DNA of 63,783 nucleotides, counting the filler, from Collodictyon triciliatum (taxonomy: Eukaryota): assembly GCA_043381765.1 (NCBI GenBank). It is 5 parts of 5 records of this genome, joined end to end, with 100 filler letters (N's around TTAATTAATTAA, not from the genome) between each part and the next. Parts side by side here need not be neighbours in the genome. Positions count along the whole stretch, not along the records: positions 15,735 to 31,346 come from JBHJMP010001651.1; 4 more parts are not named here. One strand, 5' to 3'. The notes beneath the pieces were generated by a model that was given only the letters and a program-made list of their open reading frames with translations, was not told the DNA's origin and searched no databases. The position numbers and the translations under genes are program-made. Positions 20,301 through 23,300 of this stretch are shown here, one piece after another (the first letter of the stretch is position 1; each line of letters begins with the position of its first letter).

Positions 20301-23300
20301 GTATTGAAAACGTTCCTATATTTTCTTACCTTCCTTTTACACAGTCCTTCACCCAACTTCCGTGATAGAAACGCTTATTAGCAATATTAATGAAGACCTC
20401 CAAACTCTGACTGAGGTTGATATATTTAATTATATTTTTTTCTCTTGTCATGCTATTCGAATGCTTTGTAATCATCCAGTTGGATTAAAACGAATCATAT
20501 GAAGACATAAAATTACTGCAATCCTTGTACTGGAGTTGTGATCTCTCCTCGTTATTTTCCTGATAACCCTTTGGAATAGTCCCACAGAACCTACAGCCTA
20601 ATTATGGGACTTACCAGCGTTATCATTGCCATGACAAACGTCCATATTTACCCGAAAATATCCCAAGTAATATGCCCTCTTCTGGACATGCTCCTCCCCG
20701 GGATTGATCCAAATGACATCAGAAAAACTTTAATGACTATCCAACTGCTTAAGCGTAATTTTTTTTTAAAAATAGAAAACCTGTCTAGTTTCGAATGCAT
20801 CTATACTTGGTCTTTATTATAAATTTGGTACACCGATGAGAAAACACACTGTTATGTTTCCTTTTGTTTCTTTTGTTGTATCCATTATCTGCTGAAATAT
20901 TCATCCCAAAATTTACCTTCATTGATTTCGACATATTTTCAACTTTTTTTTTCTATAGGCTTGTTTAGTGTTGTTCCGCTTGTACCATGTTCAGGAAGAG
21001 AGTGCTCTAGAGAAGAAATTGATGAATATTGTCGGTTTATATCTCAGAACGCGCCCAAGTTAACCCTAATAGACCCATTGTCGCCAGAAGGGGCTGAGCT
21101 TCACGGATATTTTGTTCAATTTGGAGAGTTCATAAAGGAATATATGGTTCAATTTATGGAGAAAATTATTAATCTGATATCCTAAAGTAGTGACCGAAAA
21201 GTGCAGATCTTATTTTGTTATTTTTTCCAACGCCTCTCAACCCTATTTCTTTACATGTTACAAAGGAAATTCGTACATATTTTATTTCAACCTTGACTAT
21301 TATTCCCTACTTTATCATTTTGGAATCAACTAGGAACTCAGATGAGCAAAAGGAAACCGAGGTCAAACATATTCAAGTAATATTTTTTTAAGTATCTCTA
21401 CACATTTTATCTAGGTATACTTTTCCTCTATATTAAAGACCTGGATATGTGTACCTCAAATTATTTACTACATTCTTTAATATTTTCATGTTGTTTGTAG
21501 GAGCTCATGACCACAATGTTTTGCCAAATGTCTCTTGATATTTACCTGATATGTCTCCACAAAGTTTCCCAATACTTGGATAGCATATCAATATCGATTC
21601 CTGCCAAGAAGGTTGTTGCTCAGATTGATTCACGCTCAATAATTTATTTATTTTCAGTATCACATGGAAGTAAAAATGTACTTTTTAGCTTTTTTTTTTT
21701 TATTACCAATGTTGTTACATTACTAGATAGGGCCGTTCATTGAGACACTTGTATGTGGAAATCCCAAGGAAGCATTGATTCGAATTATTCCAAAATATTT
21801 AGTACCTCTACAGACTCATATTCGTATGGCTATATTTGATTATGCATTTTAACTCGGGTTTTTCTTTATATCAGTTTTACAAAACAAAACAAAATAAAAA
21901 TAGCAAGTAAATGTATGCCTTGTAACTATTCTTTCGTTTCTTTCCACTTTAATGCTAAATTTTCATAGTTTTTCTTTCAATTTATGGTAGATGAGAGTGG
22001 TTAACCTTGACCCTTTATTATTTAGCTCTCCATGATAAATTCTTCTAGAATTATAGCTGATTTTTATGTCTTTATTGGAGGAAATTATTTTGTATACAGT
22101 AGTTCACATGTATTCCCTACTGCTTGATTTATTCATTCAATAGAAACGCCAAACCTATCTGAGGCAGAAGTCATTTGGAACTTGAAATTGCTTGGATGGA
22201 CGATTAATCAAGCCGGAGACGAGAATTTAAAATATTCGTTGGTTTCATGATATTATGATTCTAATTTACACATTTGAATGTATGACACATTTTGGTAACA
22301 TGATGCCATTTTTTCTATCCGCTTTTTTTTTTTTTTTTGAGAATGAAATTCTAGAAGGACATATAATTTAATGTTTTATTAGTGAGCCGATATTGATGTG
22401 TATAGCTGCAATTTTGAGGGACAAATCTCCAAAAATTAGAAAATCTGCGGCGAAGTTCATCAGATATATATCCCAAATAGATCTATAACCATTATAATAT
22501 ATGCACGGCTTTTGTTCATGTCGGTGGATTAATCATGCTTTTGATGTGCTATCAAAATTGAAAACATGCCCTCCTTGACGATTTTACTTTCTGAAAGCCC
22601 TGTGTTTAAAACACATTCGAAATTTCAAGTCTCTTCCCCGCTGCATAGTGGAAAGCCCAGGTAAGAATTCCCTTCTTCCACGTTTGACTTAGGTCAAATC
22701 GATTAGCAATTTTGTGTGCGAAAGCTCTAATTCAGAGAAAAATAAAAGAAAATTCAAGATTTTAGACGCAAAATTGAAACACATGCCATTTTTCTGTATT
22801 TAGCATTCAATGCCTATCCGTGGATGGCCTGGTCAATTCCGTTAGACTCTACATTTGTTGAAGTTGACTGGTACAGTCCTGTAAGTTTATCTATTTTTTT
22901 TCTCTTCTCCTTATCATACAAAATGCAATTAAATGTAACAGGACGTGGCAATACAGTCGCACTTAAGGGCTGCCAATTTGATTAAGAACAGTTCCGATAG
23001 AAACAGTGATCTCCACTTGAACTTATGTGCTTACTATTTGAAGTATTTTGATGAGTACTAAATACCAATTTTTAAATTCCCTTCACAGTCAGCGGCTGTT
23101 CTTGCTGTTGTCAAAGATATCATGGATACTTATTTAACTCCGAATATAATCTTGATTGAAGAGTTATTGTCAGTCAGAGAAAGGTTCGCAAGGATCATTA
23201 TATACTGATGCGATTATCTTTTTTTTTTTTTTTCAAGTGTCGATTTCTATTTTCAAGGTGAAATGAGATTATCACCAATTAGCCACTCATTACAGGCGCG

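What the first reader, a model, noticed from the sequence alone, without database searches (positions are those of the whole stretch)
22468..22587. Second phase-0 AT-AC intron 1.2 kb away in the same gene: possible lineage-specific minor-intron gain
Seen: ATATCCCAA...TCCTTGAC-GATTTTAC, giving an in-frame join KFIRY|FLKAL. Two AT-AC introns occur in one gene, out of a rough total of 130 introns I read in the window; both are phase 0 and both have AA at +8/+9. Established: U12 introns are normally well under 1% of introns and depleted in phase 0, and large expansions are known from few lineages (e.g. Physarum). Inference: this may be an undescribed expansion with a diverged U11/U6atac recognition motif. 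The sample is only two introns.
Basis: partly seen in the sequence, partly recalled or inferred. Interest (0 to 1): 0.75.

Follow-up and report, generated by a model that had tools for sequence, protein, structure and literature searches.

The report
Two minor-spliceosome introns in PA200 gene
The flagged 120 bases look like a genuine intron of the rare minor (U12-type, AT-AC) class, one of two in a proteasome-activator (PA200/PSME4) gene of an unidentified AT-rich eukaryote; other sampled eukaryotes have no intron at either exact spot, but nothing here shows a genome-wide expansion.

Summary
Window 22468-22587 is a 120-nt, phase-0 AT-AC intron with 5' end ATATCCCAA and TCCTTGAC; the branch A lies 9 nt from the 3' AC. 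It joins KFIRY|FLKAL in a PA200/PSME4/Blm10 gene. A second one, 21177-21310, has ATATCCTAA and CCTTGAC 14 nt from AC, also phase 0.

- **Junctions:** Ten full-length homologues align without a gap across both joins. No plausible in-frame GT-AG alternative exists.
- **Branch-site control:** None of the other 41 modelled introns of the gene carries the branch motif near its 3' end.
- **Chance:** The motifs alone are not rarer than chance in 64 kb (3 seen, 2.4 expected). The weight comes from exact in-frame placement plus homology.

In 80 PA200 loci from metagenomes, 0 of 36 that cover the second position have an intron there. None has one at the first position, although eight, including animal-like loci, have a GT-AG intron four codons upstream. 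So neither is a widely conserved U12 intron.

An expansion or a diverged recognition motif is untested. No genome, no minor snRNAs and no close relative were available, and I found no other convincing U12-type intron in the window. I call it a new member of a known kind, of modest interest.

The parts
22468..22587 (+). Intron B (the finding): 120-nt U12-type AT-AC intron, phase 0
   Evidence: Sequence; gene model; adjacent profile hits of the flanking exons; gap-free alignment of 10 homologues across the join.
22468..22476 (+). 5' splice site ATATCCCAA. It matches 6 of 8 positions of the published ATATCCTT motif, differing at +7 and +8.
   Evidence: motif as quoted in the bioRxiv preprint 10.1101/2020.10.12.336362.
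22572..22579 (+). Branch-site motif TCCTTGAC. The branch A is at 22578, 9 nt before the 3' end of the intron.
22383..22467 (+). Upstream exon (...EPILMCIAAILRDKSPKIRKSAAKFIRY)
   Evidence: weak HEAT repeat hit, E 0.015; profile positions 678-702.
22588..22660 (+). Downstream exon (FLKALCLKHIRNFKSLPRCIVESP), followed by a GTAAGA donor
   Evidence: profile positions 703-725.
21177..21310 (+). Intron A: 134-nt U12-type AT-AC intron, phase 0. 5' site ATATCCTAA; CCTTGAC at 21291-21297; branch A at 21296, 14 nt before the 3' end.
   Evidence: between profile positions 530 and 531.
20959..21176 (+). Exon upstream of intron A (...EFIKEYMVQFMEKIINL)
21311..21376 (+). Exon downstream of intron A (FIILESTRNSDEQKETEVKHIQ)
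17890..30327 (+). Modelled part of the PA200/PSME4/Blm10-like gene. It has 43 introns (41 GT/GC-AG and 2 AT-AC) and ends ...SYYA then a stop. The 5' end upstream of 17890 was not modelled, and several exon borders are approximate.
   Evidence: Pfam PSME4_C on exons 29671-29880 and 30193-30324; collinear profile hits; model.

Best explanation
Window 22468-22587 is a real intron of the minor (U12-dependent) class, AT-AC subtype, in a PA200/PSME4/Blm10 proteasome-activator gene of an unidentified, AT-rich, very intron-rich eukaryote. A second such intron lies 1.3 kb upstream at 21177-21310.

Inferred mechanism, from established knowledge of minor splicing:
- U11 and later U6atac pair with the ATATCC 5' site.
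- U12 pairs with TCCTTGAC and bulges the branch adenosine 9 nt (intron A: 14 nt) from the 3' AC.
- The intron is removed between codons, joining ...KFIRY to FLKAL...

Shown here: the motifs, their spacing, the exact in-frame join, the agreement of the join with homologues, and the lack of a usable GT-AG alternative.

Inferred, not shown: that the junction is used in RNA, that the organism has the minor snRNAs, and how the introns arose.

On origin, both positions lack an intron in every other eukaryotic PA200 locus I could sample. The introns are therefore either lineage-specific or survivors lost elsewhere. The data do not show a genome-wide expansion.
For: - **Gene identity.** Pfam PSME4_C hits, E 1.6e-10 and 1e-09. 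An exon aligns to human PA200 residues 471-507. Collinear hits run along a profile of 10 homologues.
- **Junction B.** Flanking pieces hit profile 678-704 and 704-725. 10 of 10 homologues are gap-free across KFIRY|FLKAL, with a conserved pattern such as TLIRNILEAL, KLLRNILFSL, KLVRYLVGSL. 16 of 16 related loci shown read straight through the same columns.
- **Alternatives for B.** The only in-frame GT-AG pair (22400 to 22597) deletes 26 aligned residues (CIAAILRDKSPKIRKSAAKFIRYFLK). The GC-AG options have poor donors and also delete aligned residues. With U12 sites forbidden, the model has to drop conserved sequence at both places.
- **Splice signals.** ATATCC at both 5' ends. CCTTGAC lies 9 and 14 nt from AC in 2 of 2 AT-AC introns, against YCTTRAY in the last 30 nt of 0 of 41 other introns. 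Neither upstream exon ends in AG, which passages of PMC11347168 report as blocking minor splicing.
- **Positions not shared.** 0 of 36 loci have an intron at B and 0 of 50 at A's exact site.
Against: - The runs found hold only 0.17 and 0.06 of the sampled words.
- The motifs alone are at chance level in the window, 3 seen against 2.4 expected.
- The 5' sites depart from the consensus at +7 to +9 (B) and +8 to +9 (A).
- 9 nt from branch A to the 3' end is, as far as I recall, at the short end of what is usual. This is not checked by any search.
- No minor snRNA gene lies in the window and no genome is held. The presence of a minor spliceosome in this organism is therefore assumed.
- The branch motif was a condition for U12 acceptors in my own model, so the model is not independent evidence for it. 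Frame and homology are.
Confidence: 0.85

Rival explanations
1. One reading: the two introns are the visible tip of a lineage-wide gain of minor introns, rich in AT-AC and in phase 0, with a shifted 5' motif (A at +8/+9) and co-evolved U11/U6atac.
For: - There are 2 U12-type introns among 43 in one gene, against published densities of about 0.3% in human and 0.55% as one of the highest outside Amoebozoa (PMC10639083, section 24 read).
- Both positions are unshared with other sampled eukaryotes.
- Both are AT-AC and phase 0. The published averages are about 26% AT-AC in human and 22% phase 0. Blastocystis shows that such a shifted population can exist (77% AT-AC, 49% phase 0).
Against: - I found no other convincing U12-type intron in the 64-kb window. 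All other motif pairs lack coding context, and the three B56 introns I read are GT-AG.
- Two introns cannot define a motif.
- AT-AC introns are the ones a reader can spot by eye, so the sample is biased.
- Genes with two minor introns exist in ordinary genomes. Human MORC3 has an AT-AC and a GT-AG one (figure legend in PMC8280824).
- The branch site here is fully canonical, unlike Physarum's TTTGA.
- The two introns share no sequence beyond the signals and have no copies elsewhere in the window, so there is no sign of a spreading element.
Confidence: 0.12
2. One or both are ancient introns retained here and lost, or converted to major type and shifted, in the other lineages sampled. In that case there was no gain.
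For: - Minor introns are described as generally ancient, with rare creation (abstract and introduction of the Physarum preprint).
- For intron A, eight intron-rich loci, including animal-like ones (L005, L007, L008, L013, L018, L035, L050, L070), have a GT-AG intron in profile codon 526. It is phase 2 where I read the donor, in L013 and L018. That is four codons upstream, or 4 nt upstream if a 3-residue insertion is allowed in the alignment.
- The window shares some other approximate exon borders with those loci, near profile 475-480 and 625.
Against: - The phase and position of the GT-AG intron differ from intron A.
- For intron B, 0 of 36 loci have any intron at 702|703, and the intron-rich ones share one exon spanning about 657-720.
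- No U12-type donor with a matching branch site was seen at piece ends in the 80 loci.
Confidence: 0.25
3. The AT-AC intron is removed by the major spliceosome (a U2-type AT-AC intron), or the organism has no minor spliceosome.
For: No minor snRNA could be looked for. The 5' site is imperfect at +7 to +9.
Against: Both introns carry ATATCC plus CCTTGAC at the right distance. 0 of 41 other introns have that branch motif. There is no pyrimidine tract between branch site and 3' end.
Confidence: 0.04
4. It is not an intron at all: a decayed gene, an assembly error, or a mis-modelled exon.
For: The assembly has N gaps and long homopolymers. Several of my exon borders elsewhere in the gene are uncertain.
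Against: The frame closes 6 codons into the interval and resumes exactly after AC. Homologues are gap-free across the join. The gene is otherwise open through to a conserved C-terminal ...YYA.
Confidence: 0.03

Closest known systems
Canonical U12-type (minor) introns, AT-AC subtype, as in animals, plants and some fungi and protists. Human MORC3, for example, carries an AT-AC and a GT-AG minor intron in one gene (PMC8280824, figure 5 legend).
   Same: AT-AC termini, an ATATCC 5' core, a TCCTTGAC branch site 9-14 nt from the 3' end, no pyrimidine tract, and two such introns in one gene.
   Different: The 5' site departs from ATATCCTT at +7/+8. Both are phase 0, where minor introns average about 22% phase 0 (PMC10639083). 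The host gene and positions were not found as minor-intron sites in the full-text searches I ran. The supplementary lists of minor-intron genes were not open to me.
Physarum polycephalum minor-intron expansion (Larue, Elias and Roy, bioRxiv 10.1101/2020.10.12.336362; abstract, Results and the section on intron creation read)
   Same: Minor introns at positions not shared with distant species, in a very intron-rich genome with many homopolymers.
   Different: - Physarum has more than 20,000 minor introns with a TTTGA branch motif, RTATCYTT 5' sites, many non-canonical termini and transposon-like inverted ends.
- Here the branch site is canonical.
- The introns have no inverted ends or copies.
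- Only 2 of 43 introns in the gene are minor, and I found no convincing one elsewhere in the window.
Blastocystis sp. subtype 1 minor introns (PMC10639083, section 24)
   Same: A population dominated by AT-AC (77%) and rich in phase 0 (49%). Both introns here match that pattern.
   Different: Blastocystis minor introns average about 42 bp. These are 120 and 134 nt, and n = 2 says nothing about a population.

Membership tests
U12-type (minor) spliceosomal intron | Extended 5' splice site [G/A]TATCCTT at the intron start | tested here: met
   ATATCCCA for B (6 of 8) and ATATCCTA for A (7 of 8). The invariant ATATCC core is present in both. The motif is as quoted.
U12-type (minor) spliceosomal intron | Branch-site motif TTCCTT[G/A]AC close to the 3' splice site | tested here: met
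   B has CTCCTTGAC with the branch A 9 nt from the end. A has AACCTTGAC at 14 nt. 0 of 41 other introns of the gene have YCTTRAY in their last 30 nt.
U12-type (minor) spliceosomal intron | AT-AC or GT-AG termini that give an in-frame, homology-consistent join | tested here: met
   AT-AC in both. 10 of 10 homologues are gap-free at both joins. No acceptable GT-AG alternative exists.
U12-type (minor) spliceosomal intron | The junction is used in RNA | not testable with these tools
The runs found hold only small shares of the stretch.
U12-type (minor) spliceosomal intron | The genome encodes U11, U12, U4atac and U6atac, and splicing depends on them | not testable with these tools
   No whole genome is held. 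Rfam finds only a tRNA in the window.
PA200 / PSME4 / Blm10 proteasome activator (host gene) | PSME4 C-terminal domain, a long HEAT-like body collinear with family members, and a C-terminal ...YYA | tested here: met
   PF11919 hits at E 1.6e-10 and 1e-09. Collinear profile hits cover positions 92-1804. An exon aligns to human PA200 471-507. The model ends SYYA. Overall identity to 10 homologues is only 20-25%.
Lineage-wide minor-intron expansion (Physarum-like) | A minor-intron share far above about 0.5% of all introns | tested here: inconclusive
   2 of 43 in this gene. No convincing case was found elsewhere in the window. A genome-wide count is impossible.
Lineage-wide minor-intron expansion (Physarum-like) | Transformed signals (TTTGA branch motif, RTATCYTT 5' sites, transposon-like inverted ends) | tested here: not met
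   The branch site is the canonical CCTTGAC. The two introns have no mutual similarity beyond the signals and no other copies in the window or in the 80 loci.

The most novel reading that the evidence does not exclude
This unidentified, deeply divergent, very intron-rich eukaryote has created new minor introns while keeping the canonical branch site. On this reading it is a second, milder case after Physarum, with a population rich in AT-AC and phase 0 and a relaxed 5' site beyond +6, of which these two PA200 introns are a sample.
Probability: 0.12. Interest if true: 0.7.

Novelty: new member of a known kind. Interest (0 to 1): 0.3.

Why it matters
Creation of minor introns is thought to be extremely rare. 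[quoted passage not shown] Two U12-type introns at positions that no other sampled eukaryote occupies, in one gene of an uncharacterised lineage, are a cheap pointer to a genome worth running through a minor-intron classifier. If the share is ordinary, this is simply a correct annotation note. Gene callers that allow only GT-AG would break this PA200 gene at both places.

Tried and rejected
- **Whole genome.** None is held, so there is no genome-wide count, logo or snRNA search.
- **RNA support.** Nothing was laid, so no habitat or expression statement can be made.
- **The search for homologous proteins.** Two exons searched with 'longer' lengths gave no hit.
- **Alignment A1.** Ten sequences were too diverse for the search for related loci. 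A 3-row alignment, A2, worked.
- **Motif-only significance.** Rejected as an argument: 3 observed against 2.4 expected.
- **Other U12-like sites in the window.**
  - 20658 ATATCCCAAG is exonic.
  - 28335 ATATCCTTAAG and 27780 GTATCCTTTTC lie inside GT-AG introns without a branch motif.
  - The remaining pairs have no coding context, or lie antisense to the ROCO reading frame.
- **Introner or transposon origin.** The two introns are unrelated apart from the signals and have no copies in the window or in the 80 loci.
- **L002 'split' at profile 530.** This is a frameshift in a T run, not an intron. Its twin L001 is continuous.
- **Literature.** PSME4 with 'minor intron' gave 1 paper and PSME4 with 'U12' gave 3. 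All are irrelevant judging by title and abstract. Supplementary gene lists were closed, so PSME4 may be listed there.
- **Earlier scan notes.** None exist for this genome or for look-alike sequence.
- **Organism identity.** Not established. The B56 and PA200 comparisons only show that it is not a typical animal.

Full report
**What is at the coordinates.** Reading the + strand, the frame ...AAG TTC ATC AGA TAT runs into ATATCCCAAATAGATCTATAA, a stop six codons in. It resumes after ...CCCTCCTTGACGATTTTAC as TTT CTG AAA GCC CTG. The companion is 21177-21310 (134 nt). It has ATATCCTAA at the 5' end, CCTTGAC with the branch A 14 nt from AC, and joins ...FMEKIINL|FIILEST..., also in phase 0.

**The gene.** Exons 29671-29880 and 30193-30324 hit Pfam PSME4_C, at E 1.6e-10 and 1e-09. 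The exon just upstream of the finding gives a weak HEAT hit. Exon 20580-20753 aligns to human PA200 residues 471-507 in the PDB.

A full HMMER scan with the C-terminal exon returned 269 proteins at E of 1e-3 or better. Ten of the 150 listed are full length, 1618-1969 aa. A profile of these ten hits the window's reading-frame pieces collinearly from position 92 to 1804.

A dynamic-programming model anchored on those hits gives 43 introns between 17890 and the stop at 30325-30327. Of these, 41 are GT/GC-AG and 2 are AT-AC, and the protein ends ...SYYA. Several borders elsewhere in the gene are approximate. The 5' end was not modelled.

**Is the junction real?**
- The two exons flanking the finding hit adjacent profile positions, 678-704 and 704-725. 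By hmmalign the join lies between positions 702 and 703, and intron A between 530 and 531.
- In a MAFFT alignment of the model with the ten homologues, none of the ten has a gap at either join. The conserved pattern continues across B, for example TLIRNILEAL, KLLRNILFSL and KLVRYLVGSL.
- Enumeration of all in-frame, stop-free GT/GC/AT to AG/AC pairs shows one GT-AG option for B (22400 to 22597), which deletes 26 aligned residues. For A there are only weak GTTCAA/GTTCAT donors, which delete FMEKIINL.
- With U12 sites disabled the model loses conserved sequence at both places.

**Chance.** The motifs by themselves prove nothing. RTATCCYW occurs 20 times in the window. ATATCC...CCTTRAY...AC within 600 nt occurs 3 times against 2.4 expected in simulations. 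One ATATCCCAAG is plainly exonic, and a perfect ATATCCTTAAG lies inside a GT-AG intron.

The argument is conditional. Once frame and homology fix the borders, a CCTTRAC in the 14-nt branch window has p of about 1.3e-3 per intron. It is present in 2 of 2 AT-AC introns and in 0 of 41 others. My model required that motif for U12 acceptors, so the model itself is not independent evidence for it.

**No RNA evidence.** The run search found four runs holding 0.17, 0.06, 0.04 and 0.00 of the sampled words. Transcript support therefore remains open.

**Comparison with other eukaryotes.** A 3-row alignment of the LPGIDPND exon retrieved 80 PA200 loci from metagenome contigs. The profile was run on their reading-frame pieces.

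*Position B (702|703):*
- 38 loci reach it.
- In 36 of them one uninterrupted piece covers 696-709. The other two end at a contig end.
- Of the 36, 14 have five or more separate pieces and are intron-rich, 14 have two to four, and 8 are a single reading frame and may be transcripts.
- The intron-rich ones share an exon spanning about 657-720.
- 16 of 16 shown read through the join columns.

*Position A (530|531), among the 50 loci that span it:*
- 40 loci are continuous over 512-548.
- None is split at 530|531.
- Eight (L005, L007, L008, L013, L018, L035, L050, L070) have a GT-AG intron in codon 526 (QFMDK^LFALIENS). I read it as phase 2 in L013 and L018.
- L017 is split at 516.
- L002's apparent split is a T-run frameshift.

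L018 is animal-like, with a strong match to human PA200 436-504 (86 bits, E 6e-24). No RTATCC donor with a matching branch site was found at piece ends in any of the 80 loci.

The window's protein is only 20-25% identical to every homologue. No close relative was sampled, so the direction of change cannot be set.

**The expansion idea.** Published figures are as follows.

| Measure | Figure | Source |
|---|---|---|
| Human minor-intron density | 0.276% | PMC10639083, |
| Basidiobolus, one of the highest outside Amoebozoa | 0.554% | PMC10639083, |
| Mean phase-0 share of minor introns | 22% | PMC10639083, |
| AT-AC share in human | about 26% | PMC10639083, |
| Blastocystis | 77% AT-AC, 49% phase 0 | PMC10639083, |

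Against that, 2 of 43 in one gene, both AT-AC and phase 0, is unusual, but several points weigh against an expansion:
- It is a sample of two, chosen because it stood out.
- AT-AC introns are the ones a reader can see by eye.
- Ordinary genomes have genes with two minor introns, for example human MORC3 (PMC8280824, figure legend).
- Elsewhere in the window I found no convincing U12-type intron, and the B56 introns read are GT-AG.

The Physarum case (preprint Results) differs in kind. It has a TTTGA branch motif, RTATCYTT 5' sites and transposon-like ends. Here the branch site is canonical, the two introns are unrelated apart from their signals, and they have no copies.

**Verdict.**
- By every sequence criterion I could test, the intron is a U12-type AT-AC intron.
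- It is not a widely conserved one.
- Whether it was gained in this lineage, and whether the lineage is enriched in such introns or has a shifted 5' motif, cannot be told from this window.

It is a new member of a known kind. It is worth a genome-wide check if the assembly is at hand, and is otherwise of modest interest.

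Noticed in passing
window 20658-20667: ATATCCCAAG, the same 9-mer as the 5' end of intron B, lies inside a conserved exon (...HIYPKISQV...) of the same gene. It is a decoy that is evidently not used, since the exon aligns to human PA200 471-507.
   Followed up: yes
window 28335-28345 and 27780-27790: Perfect minor-type 5' motifs, ATATCCTTAAG and GTATCCTTTTC, lie inside modelled GT-AG introns (28317-28578 and 27674-27903). Neither has a branch motif near the 3' end. 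The first sits 19 nt after the GT donor.
   Followed up: partly
window 22005-22025: CCTTGAC followed 15 nt later by AG, inside the GT-AG intron 21824-22143. It looks like a minor branch site, but no minor 5' site pairs with it in frame.
   Followed up: partly
window 54081-54176: A tandem hexamer repeat whose unit is ATATCC, about 16 copies. It inflates naive counts of the minor 5' motif.
   Followed up: no
window 19690-19860; N runs near 15690, 26110, 31340-31450 and 32090-32620: A long (TG/CA)-type microsatellite inside a PA200 intron. There are also many poly-T/poly-A runs and several assembly gaps, so this is a repeat-rich draft assembly.
   Followed up: no
window 1314-3556 (-): A long single reading frame with Roc GTPase and COR-A domains (a ROCO protein). 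Leucine-rich repeats at 11619-12152 (-) may belong to another such gene.
   Followed up: no
window 38327-41062 (-): A PP2A B56 regulatory subunit gene. Its short GT-AG introns are in frame and stop-free, so three exons read as one 227-aa reading frame.
   Followed up: partly
window 15736-16341 (+) and 48779-49564 (+): Reading frames with the zinc-binding domain of reverse transcriptases (zf-RVT) in regions of higher G+C. They are probably LINE-like retroelement remains, one lying just upstream of the PA200 gene.
   Followed up: no
window 29725-29880 versus protein P0001: A public 82-aa reading-frame call is identical to the window's exon over 52 residues. It then reads into the intron with a different frame after a T run, so it comes from another assembly or strain of the same or a very close organism.
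   Followed up: no
window 37461-37532 (+): A tRNA gene, the only Rfam match in the window at gathering threshold.
   Followed up: no
L005, L007, L008, L013, L018, L035, L050, L070: Intron-rich PA200 loci, including animal-like ones, share a GT-AG intron in the codon after QF[MVF]D (phase 2 where I read the donor). It lies four codons upstream of the window's AT-AC intron A. This is a near-coincidence that could be an old intron that shifted, or chance.
   Followed up: partly
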